From: the human T2T-CHM13v2.0 reference genome, Homo sapiens
Assembly (NCBI RefSeq): GCF_009914755.1
Contig: NC_060940.1
Length of the DNA stretch: 64,000 bases
Strand: one strand, 5' to 3'
The translations under genes were made by a program, and so were the position numbers. The notes under the pieces were generated by a model. The model had not been told where the DNA came from, made no database searches, and saw only the letters and a list, made by a program, of their open reading frames with translations. Below, in pieces: positions 34,975 through 62,000 of the stretch. Position 1 is the first letter of the stretch, and every line of letters starts with the position of its first letter.

Positions 34975-37161
<2,187 letters not shown>

Positions 37162-37228
37162 TCAGCATGGGACCCAGTACCACCAGGCATCCTGGCTGCT
37201 TCCCTCCACCGCTAAGTCTGGGTCTGTG

Positions 37229-37381
37229 CCAGGAGACCCAGGCAGGATAGGAGACCCAGACAGGATGCGAGCACGGACAGGTGGGAGACCCGGACAGGGC
37301 GGGAGCACGGACAAGATGGGATCATGGACGGGATGGGATCATGGACAACATGGGATCATGGACAGGACGGGGGCATGGACT
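37229..37381. repeat. Degenerate 17-18 bp minisatellite (~9 units)
   Basis: ggagacccagacaggat grading into ggatcatggacaggacg units. Confidence 0.8.
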
Positions 37382-39194: not shown

Positions 39195-39976
39195 CTGCAA
39201 CAACACGCAAGGCTGTGAGACCAGGCAAGTGCCCCTCCACACTTGGCACGGACGCCCAGCTCCCAGGCCGTGGGCATCAGGAAGCTCAGGCCAAAGTAGG
39301 TCACCACCAGGCAGACCCCATACGTGAACGGCTACAGGTGGCTGTAGGTGCTGCAGCCTTCGGGACAGAGCAGGGCCTGTCCTCGGCCAGGCTGGTGTCA
39401 TTATCAGCTTTATGCCACGCTGCCTCTAAAGGGGAAAAGAGACCCAGAGTGCGAGTTCAGAAATTAACAAATGAGGGCAGTGGGGGCTGTTTCCACTGTG
39501 CCACAACCAGATGCGGAAGATTCCACGTCACAACTGTGGTCAGCAGCTGTCTGCCTTGAGGAAGGCTCTACACACCCGAGAAAGCATGAGAGCTTCCAGG
39601 AGACAGGAAAGCTGCTGATGGGAAAAGCAGCTGCCCCATCAAGAGCAGGGACTCTGAGGCCCCTGCGGGGTCCACTCAAGGCCCACGGAGAGCAGGCTGG
39701 CTCCCTGCTGGGGCCATCAGTGCTGCGCCTGACTGGCTGAAGGTGGGCTTGCTCTCAGCCCACAGGCTCCTCCTCTGGAAAGAACGCAGGATTACCACTC
39801 ACTTACACTTTAACAGAGAGCTTTATTTTTTTTGAGAGACGGAGTTTTGCTCTTGTTGCCAGGCTGGAGTGCAGTGGTGTCATCTTGGGTTCAAGTGATT
39901 CTCCTGCCTCAGCCTCCTGGGTAGCTGGGATTATAGGCACCCGCCACCATGCCCGGCTACCTATCATTTTTTTTGA

Positions 39977-52218: not shown

Positions 52219-52533
52219 CTGCAAAATAATAGTGGTATGATGAGACTGTATATAATGATGTAAATTGTCAAACCAACAAAATGCAGCATTCAGATAGTTT
52301 GTTGGCAGTTTAAATCACATTATTATAAAATTAAAGAGTGAAGAGGCAGACTGCTTTGATTCCACAATTCCTAAAGCGGACAAACGCTTAGAACTTAAAT
52401 TTAGAACCAACTGCCATCTCTCTTAATCGCTGAATTCTTGCTGACAACAATGAATGAGATGCAGTAGCCACTGCAACTGCCCCGCCACTGGCTCTGTGCA
52501 GAACTGCCCTCCAGGCCAGGGGAAACAACTCAC

Positions 52534-52611: not shown

Positions 52612-54048
52612 CTAGGAGGCAAAGAAGGCGCACTGTTAAAGCACACGGAACCACAAGACCAGAGTCACTTGTAGAAGTCTGTGTGTGCGTCCACACCTTG
52701 TTCTCTGGGTTACTTTGAGTAGTGCTGACATTAATGCGTGTGTTGGCTGATTCAGCTATATTTTACAATGCATCCGTATGATATCTTCTACAGGAAAAAG
52801 CTTTCTTCTTTTGTTTGTACAAGCGCTTCATTCCTCTTTTCTCCCAATCTCCCTTTGCAACCAGAAAGGAAACTTTACTTTTTAAAAATTGCTGCGACAA
52901 ATACATATTTCACAGGCCGGTATTTCTGACACTGCTACACATTTGCAAGAACAATGCCTTCTCTAGGTGATTTCACATGCCAAAACTGACTTAAAAAATA
53001 GAGAACAATACTTTGAGTTCTAAACATGTGCTCTTAAGTCTAAAATTGTTGAGGATACTAATGGGAAACACGGCCAGTTCAGAGCAGCCACGCTAGGCGC
53101 GAGGCACAAAAACACCAGTTCTGAGTCAGTTACAAAAGGTGGAATGTGTCAGGCCTACTGGCAAGTTGACAAGGGTTTATTCAAGTAAACACTGGTGAAG
53201 CGAGAGAATGGACCACCCATTCCCCACGAATCCTCCACACTGTTCTACGGCAGCCCACAACCACGGCCCACCAGGGCTCCGTCACCTCCAGGAACCGCCT
53301 CAACCCAGGAATCTTAAATGCCAAGATGACATTTTGAGGTCAAGACCTTGGGTTTTTGTCAGCTCCCTCCCTTGCTGCCACCACAATGCATACCTCCGAG
53401 GACAGGCTGAAGGGACTGGTGAGTAATGTGATTCCCTGTGTGCTCCTGAGCTTTGAGCTACAGCTCCTCTAAAGTGTGCCCCTGCCCTCGTCCCCTTAAT
53501 CTGTCCATTGCACGTGCTATGCAAGCCCTCAGCCATGGGTCTACCCTCATCTGGCTTCTCTGCCCAGTCTGCTGGAGGGAAAGAAAAGACACACACACAG
53601 ATCTGTGAAAAAAAAAACACACACACACAAATGGCGGCACCCGTTCATGGTCCTATGGCACTCTCTGACAGCCCGGCTCTGTCTGGCTACCTCTCCCTTC
53701 CACGTGGCAGCTGCTCTGAATCTGCACTCCTTTCCTCCAGTGCTTATCCTCCACAAGCTCTGTCTTTGACAACTCAGCCACTGAGCTCATCCCCAACGCT
53801 AAGAATTTCAAAGGTTGGGGCCAAGAACTTCCTCAATTCCTGTGCCGTCTCCAAAGGTCCCCTGCTCTCAACTCTTCCCTCCCATGTCAGGGGAAAGGAG
53901 TGTCCCCCAAAACTACACTGGGGACAGGTGCAGTGGCTCACACCTGTAATCCTAGCATGTGGAGAGGCTGGGGTGGAAGGATTGCTTTACTGGGAGTTTG
54001 AGACCAGCCTGGGTAAAATAGGGAGACCCCATTTCTACAAAAAATTTA

Positions 54049-58880: not shown

Positions 58881-58982
58881 TCAAAATGGCACCGGTACCT
58901 TCCTTATAGTCATTGGTAAGAGGAAAAAACAATTTAAGGTCACCCTCCCTCACCCCAGAGAAAATGACAGGACGGTACTTAC

Positions 58983-59063
58983 GTCTGGGGCTGTGAAGGG
59001 TCGTCACCCAGGGTCACATTCTCGCCCTGGATCTCTGTGAAACACTTCTCACAGAAATGATAC
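58983..59063 (-). CDS. CREBBP: CREBBP exon 20 (RING domain)
   Basis: tgacag|G...GAC|gtaagt; 81 nt; YHFCEKCFTEIQGENVTLGDDPSQPQ. Exon 19 is beyond the window end. Confidence 0.96.
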
Positions 59064-62000
59064 CTGTCAGCAAGAAGGCCATACTTGGGTGAACTGGTCC
59101 ATCATAACACACAGCCACCCAAGCAACGAAGCCACCAATCAGAGCAGGGCAGAGCACCACGACGAAGGGGGGGCGTTGTTGGTTGATTGATGGGTCAGTG
59201 AGGACAATGAAAGGAACAGGGGGCAGGTGGGGAAAGGCAGGATTAGAGAACAGGGAAGGGAACAAATAGCACAGACACAGAGGTAAGACGCAGACACCAA
59301 GACAACACAGAGCAGAAAGCCAAGGCAAAGCATTGATTAGCATTCGGTCTCATTGCACACATCACAGGCCATCATCACTAACAACGACAGGCTCGGTCCG
59401 GCTCCAAGAGGCAAATGTTTTCAAGGAGTTGTTAATACTAGAATTGCATGGAGCCCAAATTTAGGAATCTGAATTTTGTTCTTACTCAGAGAAAGTCAAA
59501 TATAACTCCAGGGTTTGAGATGGAAAAATTTACTTGAACAAAACAGTCTGACAAAAGGCCTTAAAAAAGCAATTTAAACTGAAATAGCTTTATTTTTCAA
59601 AATGGAAAATTTATGCTTGACAGCAATTCAGAGATTTTATTTCCGGTATTAAGCCAGATCTTTAAATGTATGAAAATGCTGAGCACCCAGAACTGATTTT
59701 AATTTTTTCCTGTTTTTTTTTTTTTCATGTTAATCATTCAGTTAATTGTGTTACAATACAAATGAAACCAAATCCATATTCTAGACAAACATTTAACATA
59801 AATGCAGTCAGGGTCAAAGACTTTCCACCCATTTATCAATATGAATATACAGAGTAAGAAATGTGATATATTGTATAAGAAATACAATATATGTAAATCC
59901 ATGAACAATCTTTGAAAATTCAATTCTAAGCTTTGATTTGACATTTTTGGTACTGGGACCAATCATTCATCAATCTGAAAGACTTAGCGAATGACTGTTC
60001 TGACTTGGGGGCAATCCAAGTTAAGTGAATTTAGAGTTAATCTTTAAAGAACAATCTGCATTTGAGAAATTATCCATCACCCCAATTTCTTGTAAGACAA
60101 TATAGAGCCTGGGCTCAAGCTATCAAATACAAACAATTAAAATAAAAACTACTAAATGTTTGGAAAGGACATAAATGAGAAATCAACAGAAATGCAGGCT
60201 GATGCTGCATAAAACAAGATGAGTACACAAGAATACCGTAAGAATAAACAAGCGGGTGGAGGTGGATCACACAAGCGAGAAGAATGAGTGTCAGGTAGCG
60301 ACGGCAGCACGAATGCGGTTTAGTGCTCAAAACTATGTCTACAAGATGCCAGGAAGGATTAGTATTAAAAACAGTGCGACAGGACTCGAGCGCCAGGCTG
60401 AACCACCAAGTGCAGAATGGGACGCGGCAGCTGCAGTCTCACTCACTTGCGCACTCACACGGCTACAGAAGACTGAGGCGTGGGCCACCGTGTGGCCAGT
60501 TCACTACCACTAGGACAGGTCCCCCACAAGTCCCAAATCTAATCTTAATTCAATACATTGAGCATTTTGTCTGTTGTATTTCACTAACCACACACATACA
60601 GCAAATTTTAAAGCATACAACTTCAGTGCATGCACATCTCAAGATGAGCCAATTTTTTGTGTTTGGTTGATGAGGAACATGACAGATTCACTAGATTAAT
60701 GAAGGTTTCTTGCTGGGACTAATTTATTTGGCACTAACTCAATTAATAAATTATGTCAGGATTTAACACTCTGACAGGCAAGAGGCAGATTAATGTTTTT
60801 CTTTAAATATGTATTTTTTTTTTCCCTGAATGAACTATAGCAATATTCTGGCCATTCACTATTTTGTAAATATCCTAAAATCCGGTATGAAGAAGAACTT
60901 CCGTGTGCAGGAGGGTATGGTCATCACTGGCAAGAAGGAATTAAAGTACAGAAACTATAAACCAATTCAGTGGCAACCAAAACAATACACAAAAAAGACA
61001 TTCCCTCAATCCCCAATACTTCCCTTTTATAAGTAAAACTCCTAATTGAGTGCCCCATTCATGATACAATCAAACACGCAGAACTATGGCCAACTAGAAG
61101 GGACCGTTCAAGACATTCTGAAATGAAACTCCCACCGTAATCACAGGTGAGTCTAAATGGTTTTAAAATCCTGGAGAAATCCTTTGCTTTTATTTAAGGA
61201 CAGCAAGCCCAGCAACATCCAGGAAACAAGAACCATAAACCCATCCTTCCCCACCGAGGAAAGTGACACTGAGGGAGGCACTGGTGGTGGAATGGCAGCC
61301 CATGCAGTGGCTGGGAAACTGAGGCTCTTCCTGTATGACTGACTCCCACCCTGGAAAATCCCAGGATCAGAACCGGGGAGGCAAAGCATTATCAACAGAC
61401 TCCTTGTCTGCCTCAAAACTGCTGGAGAAATGGACAATTTAGCCTGTTCGTGTTTAAGAAGGGGAGGAAGAGGGGCCCGTGGCTTCACTTTATTACTGTT
61501 CTGAGAGAGGAAGACAGCACACAGAAAAGGGAACAGTCACCCCCAACTAGTAAAATCAGCTAAAGCAACCCTGGCAGTCTATGAGTGATAGATGTTATTG
61601 CCAGACTGCCCCTACCTTCTTACCTAGTCCACACTTTATTCTCCCTGGAAACACATAAAGATTTAGAAATTCACTTTTCAACTTAAGCGCCTAGATGACA
61701 TTTTGCCTGGTGTGAAGGAAGCAGCTTGATGAATATGGAATTGCAAAGGAGAAATACTTCACATAATCCAGTGATGATGCATTTCAGGGTTGCTAAAGTT
61801 AGTACCATGGAACTGCATAGTTTATCTGTAAGGGTAATTTAATATATGGACTAAGTTTTCAAATGCAGATTGTTTTAAGTACCATATCAGTACATATCAC
61901 TGGGATATCTATAGATAATACTTATATTATCTACAGATACTAACTGGGAAAGCTAAAGAACAGTTTTTCCAACATGAGTTACTTTCAAATTTGCAAAGTA

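What the first reader, a model, noticed from the sequence alone, without database searches (positions are those of the whole stretch)
59064..59095. In-frame alternative acceptor would insert SSPKYGLLAD into the CBP RING domain
Seen: exactly 30 nt upstream of the canonical exon 20 acceptor is a second CAG (ggaccag|TTCACCCAAGTATGGCCTTCTTGCTGACAG|GTATCAT). In the exon 20 frame the extension is stop-free and reads (AG)T TCA CCC AAG TAT GGC CTT CTT GCT GAC AGG = S-S-P-K-Y-G-L-L-A-D-R. An in-frame TGA lies just upstream of this AG, so the frame is open essentially only over the extension. It is the first AG after a ~250-nt AG-free zone, so scanning would favour it. Established: the CBP/p300 RING packs over and restrains the KAT active site. 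Inference: a 10-aa isoform switch adding a Ser-Pro site and a Lys could tune acetyltransferase activity. The first residue assumes exon 19 ends in AG (outside the window). I recall a similar peptide in predicted vertebrate CBP/p300 isoforms but cannot verify that. An out-of-frame AAG at 59084-59085 (+20 nt) is a third option.
Basis: partly seen in the sequence, partly recalled or inferred. Interest (0 to 1): 0.8.

Follow-up and report, generated by a model that had tools for sequence, protein, structure and literature searches.

The report
Ancient alternative insert in CBP RING
A second splice acceptor 30 bases upstream of CREBBP exon 20 would add ten residues to the RING domain; the segment is kept from insects to mammals and shared with EP300, so it is very probably a real but unstudied isoform of these acetyltransferases.

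Summary
On the minus strand a CAG at 59096-59094 lies 30 nt upstream of the exon 20 acceptor. The extension 59093-59064 is in frame and stop-free. Exon 19 ends in AG, so the product reads N-SSPKYGLLAD-R.

An open in-frame upstream AG is ordinary here: 7 of 12 CREBBP acceptors in the window have one. The conservation is not ordinary.
- Human EP300 keeps 28 of 30 nt of the extension. Nine other acceptor pairs keep 8-14 of 30.
- The same 10-residue insert appears in predicted CBP or p300 isoforms of sharks, teleosts, frogs, reptiles, a bat, an anteater and a polar bear.
- One skate isoform pair differs only by these 10 residues.
- Arthropod and mollusc CBP models carry a homologous segment at the same site.

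The upstream AG closes a 253-nt AG-free zone, the longest in the window. EP300 has a 351-nt zone. Both zones begin at a conserved block containing UGCUAAU, a likely distant branch point.

Human usage and any effect on acetyltransferase activity could not be tested. Ten literature searches found no description of the isoform.

Verdict: a real, ancient alternative acceptor (about 0.8). It is a new member of a known kind.

The parts
59064..59093 (-). 30-nt alternative coding extension of exon 20. It encodes (S)SPKYGLLAD and supplies the AG of the following Arg codon.
   Evidence: Searches confirm sequence and frame. Human EP300 is identical at 28 of 30 nt. Ten codons without an indel are kept in 40 of 40 unspliced genomic ORFs. 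Of 106 insert-bearing spliced models, 93 have a 10-residue insert.
59094..59096 (-). Upstream (alternative) acceptor CAG. It is the first AG after the AG-free zone.
   Evidence: The CAG is conserved in EP300. In unspliced ORFs, column conservation steps up here, from 0.61 or less to 0.66-0.95.
58983..59063 (-). CREBBP exon 20, encoding RYHFCEKCFTEIQGENVTLGDDPSQPQ(T). It begins with the canonical acceptor gacAG|G.
   Evidence: The RefSeq table supplied with the task gives the exon. Searches confirm the frame. CBP chains in the PDB match it. Its first 27 nt are 26 of 27 identical to EP300.
59089..59093 (-). UUCAC, candidate proximal branch site for the canonical acceptor. The A is at 59090, 26 nt before the canonical AG.
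   Evidence: It is identical in EP300 and fits yUnAy (consensus recalled). It has two mismatches to YNYURAY. This assignment is an inference.
59119..59151 (-). Proximal conserved intronic block (CCTGCTCTGATTGGTGGCTTCGTTGCTTGG). It contains CUCUGAU, with the A at 59139, 45 nt before the upstream AG.
   Evidence: the last 88 nt of the intron are 85.7% identical to EP300 (E 7e-24). A GATTGG-type translation is seen in 25 of 40 unspliced ORFs.
59096..59348 (-). 253-nt AG exclusion zone. It is pyrimidine- and UG-rich (T 92, C 81, G 52, A 28).
   Evidence: It is the longest AG-free interval in the window. The EP300 counterpart is 351 nt. It is not a tandem repeat.
59302..59344 (-). Distal conserved block at the 5' end of the AG-free zone. 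It contains UGCUAAU (59342-59336, A at 59337), the candidate distant branch point, 243 nt before the upstream AG.
   Evidence: 43 nt are 93% identical to EP300 (E 5e-13). Its translation is seen in 32 of 40 unspliced ORFs. It fits YNYURAY, the consensus quoted in PMC1431707.
59084..59085 (-). Out-of-frame AAG at +20 nt. In EP300 this position is a CAG.
   Evidence: Use of this site would shift the frame and give an early stop.
59102..59104 (-). In-frame TGA that closes the reading frame just upstream of the alternative acceptor.

Best explanation
CREBBP intron 19 / exon 20 carries an ancient pair of alternative 3' splice sites 30 nt apart.
- Splicing of exon 19 (...AAT AG) to the downstream AG gives the textbook short protein (...YQN-RYHFCEKC...).
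- Splicing to the upstream CAG at 59096-59094 gives a long form with SSPKYGLLAD inserted between Asn and Arg. The insert sits four residues before the CxxC of the atypical RING.

The long form is the ancestral state. EP300 has the same arrangement, and arthropod and mollusc CBP models carry a homologous segment at the same junction.

Inferred splicing mechanism (not shown):
- The upstream acceptor is served by a distant branch point, UGCUAAU at 59342-59336. This sits at the 5' end of a 253-nt AG exclusion zone, so the first AG reached is the upstream CAG.
- The canonical acceptor uses a proximal branch site, UUCAC, which lies inside the extension just past the upstream AG.
- The isoform ratio would then be set by which branch site is engaged. 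The two conserved intronic blocks probably modulate this choice.

Inferred protein effect (not shown): the insert lengthens a surface loop or hairpin next to the zinc ligands of the RING, the domain that gates the acetyltransferase active site.
For: Shown directly:
- The sequence, the frame and exon 19 ending in AG.
- Human CREBBP and EP300 share 28 of 30 nt of the extension. The 30 nt upstream of nine other acceptor pairs share only 8-14 of 30 (exons 21 and 23 were not located).
- Synonymous change is suppressed across the extension and the first 8 exon codons: 1 of 18 same-residue codons differ, against 10 of 15 in the rest of the exon (Fisher p 4.5e-4).
- All 40 unspliced genomic ORFs from many vertebrates keep SSP[KQN][YF]GL[LIV]AD as 10 codons with no indel, while the translated intron upstream diverges.
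- Of 194 spliced CBP/p300 models with recognisable anchors, 106 carry a segment at this junction and 93 of those are 10 residues long.
- The carriers include Pipistrellus kuhlii CBP X6/X7, Tamandua p300 X1, Ursus maritimus p300, Lepidochelys CBP X1, Pseudonaja p300, two frogs, three sharks or rays and many teleosts. The bat X6 model matches the human translation at 38 of 38 residues.
- Leucoraja erinacea CBP-like X1 and X2 are identical except for one 10-residue gap.
- Beetles, moths, flies, hemipterans and a bivalve have S(S)LKAYGLGSD-like segments at the same place.
- The first inserted residue is Ser or Arg (AGN codons) in 102 of 106 models, as expected if the phase-2 intron after AG is old.
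- The AG exclusion zones are 253 nt (CREBBP) and 351 nt (EP300). Both begin at a block that is 93% identical between the two genes.
- That block and the last 88 nt of the intron are the only colinear conserved blocks found when the whole introns are compared.
Against: - No human transcript or peptide evidence could be consulted. The RefSeq table supplied with the task lists 9 CREBBP transcripts and none has a 58983-59093 exon.
- The 20 nt just before the upstream AG are a poor pyrimidine tract: 45% Y, against 65% for the canonical site and 50-85% for the 12 annotated acceptors. The base after the AG is T.
- Conservation at synonymous sites shows an RNA-level constraint. In mammals that alone might explain the conservation.
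- All 16 distinct PDB sequences that match lack the insert.
- 88 of 194 spliced models lack it, including all 35 named spliced models P0048-P0082 of the first search.
- Predicted isoforms in other species may partly be propagated by homology rather than by RNA evidence.
- The branch-point assignments are pattern matches only.
- PTB-type motifs are not enriched in the AG-free zone.
- No conserved RNA structure was found.
Confidence: 0.8

Rival explanations
1. In humans the 30 nt are conserved only as RNA signals for the canonical acceptor: branch site, pyrimidine tract and bound regulators. The upstream AG would then be a relic that is used rarely or never, and the long protein would matter only in fish and invertebrates.
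For: Synonymous sites are frozen between the paralogues, which coding constraint alone does not need. The conserved UUCAC and a short pyrimidine tract for the canonical site lie inside the extension. Human RefSeq lacks the isoform (task table). Every solved structure that matches is the short form.
Against: Ordinary branch-site and pyrimidine-tract regions of nine other CREBBP/EP300 acceptor pairs keep only 8-14 of 30 nt. The peptide is unchanged in bat, turtle and human CBP, and in anteater, bear and human p300. Replacements across species are conservative (Y/F, L/I/V, K/Q, D/N) and never change the length. A long AG exclusion zone that ends exactly at the upstream AG, in both genes, has no role for the canonical site alone.
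Confidence: 0.12
2. The upstream AGs act mainly as decoys or as an unproductive outlet. Use of the +20 AG shifts the frame and leads to decay, so the site would tune CBP/p300 dosage rather than make a functional long protein.
For: An out-of-frame AG sits 10 nt after the upstream CAG in both genes. It is AAG in CREBBP and a stronger CAG in EP300. Its use gives an early stop. Ultraconserved splice regions often belong to autoregulatory unproductive splicing; this point is from general knowledge.
Against: This does not explain why the 30 nt stay in frame, stay stop-free and stay conserved at the residue level from arthropods to mammals. The +20 AG lies only 6 nt after the conserved UUCAC adenosine. 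By the rule quoted in PMC1431707, an AG that close to a branch site is bypassed.
Confidence: 0.05
3. A chance cryptic AG with a chance open frame.
For: 7 of 12 acceptors in the window have an in-frame, stop-free upstream AG within 60 nt.
Against: All the conservation and annotation evidence argues against it.
Confidence: 0.01

Closest known systems
Predicted CBP/p300 'isoform X' pairs in other species (for example Leucoraja erinacea CBP-like X1/X2, Amblyraja radiata CBP X3 against X4/X5, Pipistrellus kuhlii CBP X6/X7, Tamandua tetradactyla p300 X1)
   Same: They carry the same junction and the same 10-residue insert. SSPKYGLLAD in bat CBP is identical to the human translation.
   Different: They are automatic gene models in other species. 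The human RefSeq table supplied with the task has no such transcript, and no paper describing the isoform was found.
Exons with distant branch points and long AG exclusion zones (Gooding et al. 2006, PMC1431707; their examples include PTB exon 11 and GABBR1 exon 23)
   Same: There is an AG-free zone of 253 nt (351 nt in EP300). A YNYURAY match and a pyrimidine-rich tract sit at its 5' end, conserved elements lie between the candidate branch point and the exon, and the site is associated with alternative splicing.
   Different: The zone ends at an alternative acceptor, not at the annotated exon start. An AG-exclusion search begun at the canonical site therefore stops after 20-30 nt. CREBBP and EP300 do not appear in that paper's main text; its supplement could not be read. 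The branch point is not mapped, and PTB motifs are not enriched.
Tandem alternative acceptors giving small in-frame insertions (NAGNAG and longer)
   Same: Two AGs lie in one frame, and the choice adds or removes a few residues without touching the rest of the protein.
   Different: The sites are 30 nt apart, too far for simple competition between neighbouring AGs. They probably use different branch sites. Conservation reaches across Bilateria and across the two vertebrate paralogues.
The p300/CBP RING as gatekeeper of the acetyltransferase site (Delvecchio et al. 2013, seen only as summarised in the review PMC12547938, passages)
   Same: The insert lies inside this RING, four residues before its CxxC.
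   Different: All published structures and assays use the short form. No effect of the insert is known.

Membership tests
Alternative 3' splice site (in-frame tandem acceptor) event | A second AG with a pyrimidine at -3, upstream of the annotated acceptor | tested here: met
   The CAG is at 59096-59094.
Alternative 3' splice site (in-frame tandem acceptor) event | The extension keeps the reading frame and has no stop | tested here: met
   The extension is 30 nt and reads SSPKYGLLAD. Exon 19 ends in AG.
Alternative 3' splice site (in-frame tandem acceptor) event | Both products are observed as transcripts in the organism | not testable with these tools
   No RNA-seq or EST resource was available. 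The RefSeq table supplied with the task has only the short form for human.
Alternative 3' splice site (in-frame tandem acceptor) event | Both products are annotated for one gene in related species | tested here: met
   Leucoraja erinacea X1 and X2 differ only by one 10-residue gap. Amblyraja radiata X3 is long and X4/X5 are short.
Conserved alternative coding segment | Residue-level conservation of the segment beyond that of the flanking intron | tested here: met
   The majority residue frequency is 0.66-0.95 in the 10 extension columns and 0.61 or less in the 12 columns upstream, across 44 rows. Human CREBBP and EP300 share 28 of 30 nt, against 8-14 of 30 in nine controls.
Conserved alternative coding segment | A codon-aware signature: excess of synonymous over non-synonymous change | tested here: inconclusive
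   Only one DNA pair was available, and it shows 1 synonymous and 1 non-synonymous change. No vertebrate genome alignments were held.
Distant-branch-point exon (AG exclusion zone class) | An AG-free zone of at least 100 nt immediately upstream of the AG that is used | tested here: met
   The zones are 253 nt (CREBBP) and 351 nt (EP300), measured from the upstream AG. Shuffle tests gave 0.001 and 0 of 20,000.
Distant-branch-point exon (AG exclusion zone class) | A branch-site consensus with an adjacent pyrimidine tract near the 5' end of the zone | tested here: met
   UGCUAAU fits YNYURAY. It lies 6 nt inside the zone, is followed by a T/C-rich sequence, and is conserved in EP300 and in 32 of 40 ORFs.
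Distant-branch-point exon (AG exclusion zone class) | An experimentally mapped branch at that site | not testable with these tools
   This needs lariat mapping or minigene mutagenesis.
CBP/p300 atypical RING domain | The insert lies within the RING | tested here: met
   The Pfam RING_CBP-p300 match ends at the Asn just before the insert. The CxxC and the rest of exon 20 align to CBP and p300 core structures.

The most novel reading that the evidence does not exclude
The long/short choice at this junction is a bilaterian-wide alternative splicing switch more than 500 million years old, operating in the RING of CBP/p300. Under this reading the two forms gate the acetyltransferase site differently. 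In vertebrates the switch would be set developmentally or by tissue, through competition between a distant and a proximal branch point. The conserved YGCY- and UG-rich blocks would control that competition, with MBNL- or CELF-type factors as candidates. All structural and biochemical work on CBP/p300 would then describe only one of two conserved enzyme states.
Probability: 0.25. Interest if true: 0.85.

Novelty: new member of a known kind. Interest (0 to 1): 0.62.

Why it matters
CBP and p300 are central acetyltransferases. They are mutated in Rubinstein-Taybi syndrome and in lymphoma, and they are drug targets. Their RING is described as a gatekeeper of the catalytic site (PMC12547938, passages).

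- A conserved 10-residue alternative insert beside the RING zinc ligands would be a built-in and so far ignored way to vary that gate. It is present in both paralogues and is homologous to a segment in invertebrate CBP.
- The long AG-free zones (59096-59348 in CREBBP, and the EP300 counterpart) and the two conserved intronic blocks are places where deep-intronic variants could disturb splicing. New AGs or branch-site changes there lie outside the regions usually screened in patients.
- Variant interpretation at c.3699-1 to c.3699-32 should take into account that the upstream acceptor is in frame. The c. numbering assumes a 2,442-residue CBP, a length that is recalled rather than taken from a call.

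Tried and rejected
- Protein-level controls with the genome search were ambiguous. Local alignments ran 8-11 residues into two control introns, once through a stop. I replaced them with the nucleotide control.
- Same-species teleost long/short pairs turned out to be paralogues, about 87-90% identical, so they say nothing about isoforms. True isoform pairs came only from the skates.
- The Pfam RING model ends before the insert and is uninformative about it.
- Known RNA families: no match in 58900-59500. Tandem repeats: none.
- RNA structure. A CREBBP hairpin pairing CUUGGGUG with CACCCAAG over the upstream AG scores z -3.44. The EP300 equivalent scores z -1.14 with different pairing. The whole AG-free zones score z -0.4 and -0.5. 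I do not claim a conserved structure.
- PTB-type motifs (UCUU, CUCUCU) are not enriched in either AG-free zone. YGCY is weakly enriched (shuffle fractions 0.067 and 0.013) and UGUGU more so (0.004 and 0.009). These are leads only.
- Literature: ten searches found nothing on this isoform. The peptides returned 0 papers. The 2025 p300/CBP review has no occurrence of 'splic'. Gooding 2006 does not name CREBBP or EP300 in its main text, and its supplement held no readable text.
- Structure prediction of a long-form catalytic core (alignment A2) could not be run.
Full report
**1. What is in the sequence**

CREBBP lies on the minus strand. Around the start of exon 20 it reads ...atgatggacCAG|TTCACCCAAGTATGGCCTTCTTGCTGACAG|GTATCATTTCTG....
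- The annotated exon begins at 59063, which is the third base of an AGG codon.
- A second CAG sits at 59096-59094. The 30 nt between the two acceptors (59093-59064) are in frame and stop-free.
- An in-frame TGA lies at 59104-59102.
- Upstream AGs would add 20 nt (AAG, out of frame), 30 nt (CAG) and then 285 nt.
- The human genome is held as G000, so I could read exon 19, which lies outside the window. It ends TAT CAG AAT AG|gtaagc.
Use of the +20 AG gives an early stop.

**2. Chance**

An open, in-frame upstream AG is not remarkable. Among the nearest five or so AGs of each exon, 7 of the 12 CREBBP acceptors in the window have one within 60 nt. The case rests on conservation and on the intron's architecture.

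**3. The human paralogue**

A six-frame search of the genome with the 40 codons 59101-58982 found one other place, in EP300 on chromosome 22. The match starts exactly at the first Ser of the extension.

At the DNA level:
- The extension differs at 2 of 30 positions: AAG to CAG (Lys to Gln) and GCT to GCC (silent).
- For nine other exon pairs of the two genes, the 30 nt upstream of the acceptor share only 8-14 of 30. Exons 21 and 23 could not be located by blastn.
- Synonymous change is almost absent across the extension and the first 8 exon codons: 1 of 18 same-residue codons differ.
- In the rest of the exon 10 of 15 same-residue codons differ (Fisher p 4.5e-4).
- So there is an RNA-level constraint on top of any coding constraint. 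That is usual for regulated splice sites.

**4. Other species**

I ran three searches of the large protein collection. Each lists cluster representatives, and the last two show only the best 120 of 559 and 496 hits. The counts are therefore not a census.

Two kinds of evidence came back.
- Unspliced genomic ORFs. Forty unnamed ORFs read straight through vertebrate genomic DNA into this exon. All 40 keep SSP[KQN][YF]GL[LIV]AD as ten codons without an indel, while the translated intron upstream diverges.
- In those rows the majority residue frequency is 0.61 or less in the 12 columns before the extension and 0.66-0.95 in the 10 extension columns.
- These ORFs were found because they are open, so the absence of stops among them is not independent evidence.
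- Spliced gene models. Of 194 models with recognisable anchors, 106 have a segment between ...QN and R, and 93 of those are 10 residues long. The other 88 have none.

Carriers include:
- Pipistrellus kuhlii CBP X6/X7, where X6 matches the human translation at 38 of 38 residues;
- Tamandua p300 X1 and Ursus maritimus p300, with SSPQYGLLAD as in human EP300;
- Lepidochelys CBP X1, Pseudonaja p300, two frogs, three sharks or rays and many teleost p300 and crebbp-b models.

Leucoraja erinacea CBP-like X1 (2,451 aa) and X2 (2,441 aa) are identical except for one 10-residue gap. Amblyraja radiata X3 is long and X4/X5 are short. That is the alternative event annotated within one gene.

Against this, all 35 named spliced models of the first search lack the insert. 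All 16 distinct PDB sequences that match also lack it.

**5. Invertebrates**

- Beetles, Bombyx, Maniola, Drosophila novamexicana and Glossina have YQN-S(S)LKAYG[LV]..S[DN]-RYTFCQKC.
- Hemipterans and a bivalve have shorter R-initial versions.
- Two unnamed proteins have KNPTPSLFSD.
- Models of Colias, Pararge, Bactrocera (X3), Anopheles, Aedes, Culicoides (X2), Ixodes, Polyplax and an ostracod read YQN-RYTF.
- The first inserted residue is Ser or Arg in 102 of 106 models and the last is Asp or Asn in 102 of 106.
- That fits an old phase-2 intron after AG, with a ...GAY AG|G acceptor at the end of the segment.
- I infer that the long form is ancestral. Whether the alternative choice itself predates vertebrates is open. 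Model differences between species could be annotation noise.

**6. The intron**

- The 253-nt AG-free stretch (59348-59096) is the longest of 4,652 such intervals on this strand of the window. The next longest is 154 nt.
- Only 0.1% of mononucleotide shuffles lack AG.
- EP300 has AGs at +0, +20, +30 and then +383. Its 351-nt zone includes an A-rich run, and 0 of 20,000 shuffles lack AG.
- A whole-intron comparison (5,485 nt against 2,142 nt) finds only two colinear blocks.
- The first is the last 88 nt of the intron (59151-59064; 85.7% identical, E 7e-24).
- The second is a 43-nt block at 59344-59302 (93% identical, E 5e-13), which sits at the 5' end of both AG-free zones.
- Translations of the distal block occur in 32 of 40 unspliced ORFs, 31-159 codons upstream of the extension. 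A GATTGG-type proximal block occurs in 25 of 40.
- The distal block contains UGCUAAU. This fits YNYURAY, the heptamer used by Gooding et al. (PMC1431707, passages read).
- Those authors describe this arrangement as the hallmark of distant branch points: branch site and pyrimidine tract at the 5' end of a long AG exclusion zone, and the first AG downstream used.
- Other candidates are CUCUGAU (A at 59139, 45 nt before the upstream AG; one mismatch in EP300) and UUCAC (A at 59090, 26 nt before the canonical AG; identical in EP300).

**7. Proposed splicing mechanism (inferred)**

- A branch at 59337, or at 59139, would lead to the first AG, the upstream CAG, and so to the long form.
- A branch at 59090 lies downstream of that CAG and only 6 nt before the +20 AG. 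By the distance rule quoted, that AG is too close to be used. The canonical AG would be chosen instead, giving the short form.
- The poor local pyrimidine tract before the upstream AG (45% Y) is compatible with a distant, AG-independent branch point. It is also a reason to expect the short form to dominate.
- I could not support a role for RNA structure or for PTB.
- YGCY and UGUGU are modestly enriched in both zones, which makes MBNL- or CELF-type factors candidates only.

**8. Protein**

- The insert lies in the atypical RING, just after the Pfam RING_CBP-p300 match and four residues before the CxxC.
- A 2025 review (PMC12547938, passages read) says three things. The RING binds one zinc. It sits over the substrate site of the acetyltransferase domain. 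Mutations that disturb it raise activity.
- Across 69 aligned long forms from vertebrates and invertebrates, the first Ser, the central Gly-Leu and the flanking Asn, Arg and Tyr are invariant or at least 90% conserved.
- From this I infer a structured extension, perhaps a longer hairpin with the Gly at its turn.
- The Ser-Pro is specific to vertebrates, and the Lys is Gln in human EP300.

**9. Novelty**

- Ten full-text searches found no paper on this isoform. The peptides returned 0 papers.
- The review above never mentions splicing.
- Gooding et al. do not name either gene in their main text. Their supplement could not be read.
- The isoform does exist as automatic models in other species. 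The event is therefore a new, uncharacterised member of a known kind, not a new kind.

**10. Limits**

- There are no transcript, proteome or variation data for human.
- There are no vertebrate genome alignments, so no codon-aware test was possible.
- The protein lists are biased towards the query form.
- Branch points rest on pattern matches only.
- No structural model was made.

Noticed in passing
L001 (G000:C22:41634900-41635900), about 290-666: EP300 has the same architecture as CREBBP. It has an upstream CAG 30 nt before the exon (extension SSPQYGLLAD), an out-of-frame CAG at +20, a 351-nt AG-free zone, and the same distal and proximal conserved blocks.
   Followed up: yes
window 59037-59063 (first 27 nt of exon 20): These 27 nt are 26 of 27 identical to EP300, and every synonymous site of the eight YHFCEKCF codons is unchanged. 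Other exon pairs share 17-24 of 27. This suggests exonic splicing signals overlapping the zinc-ligand codons.
   Followed up: partly
window 59030-59058: CREBBP exon 20 contains a perfect inverted repeat, UCUGUGA...UCACAGA, predicted as a hairpin. It is broken in EP300 by the Thr-to-Asn codon change.
   Followed up: partly
L001 324-402 and 443-498: Inside the EP300 AG-free zone, a U-rich stretch and an A-rich run are mutually complementary. If paired, they would bring the distal block closer to the acceptors. The fold is not better than shuffles (z -0.5).
   Followed up: partly
window 37225-37380: This is the second-longest AG-free interval on the minus strand (154 nt). It ends about 94 nt upstream of the last-exon acceptor at 37131.
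   Followed up: no
window 52612-52632, 52219-52245, 39195-39212 and other acceptors: Six other CREBBP acceptors have in-frame, stop-free upstream AGs within 60 nt. For the five whose EP300 counterpart was located, the upstream 30 nt are not conserved in EP300 (8-14 of 30). These five look like chance cryptic sites; exon 23 could not be checked.
   Followed up: partly
proteins P0155, P0157, P0172, P0188, P0046, P0047 (teleost models): Several fish gene models have aberrant sequence exactly at this junction, such as SSLCVY, SKLNIFSC, or odd upstream exons joined to SPNYGLVADR. Annotation pipelines seem to stumble over the double acceptor.
   Followed up: no
CREBBP intron 19, window-equivalent 64299-64433 (just beyond the window end; locus L002): This stretch matches the EP300 intron on the opposite strand (74-84% identity over 68-135 nt). 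It is probably a shared interspersed repeat rather than a conserved element.
   Followed up: no
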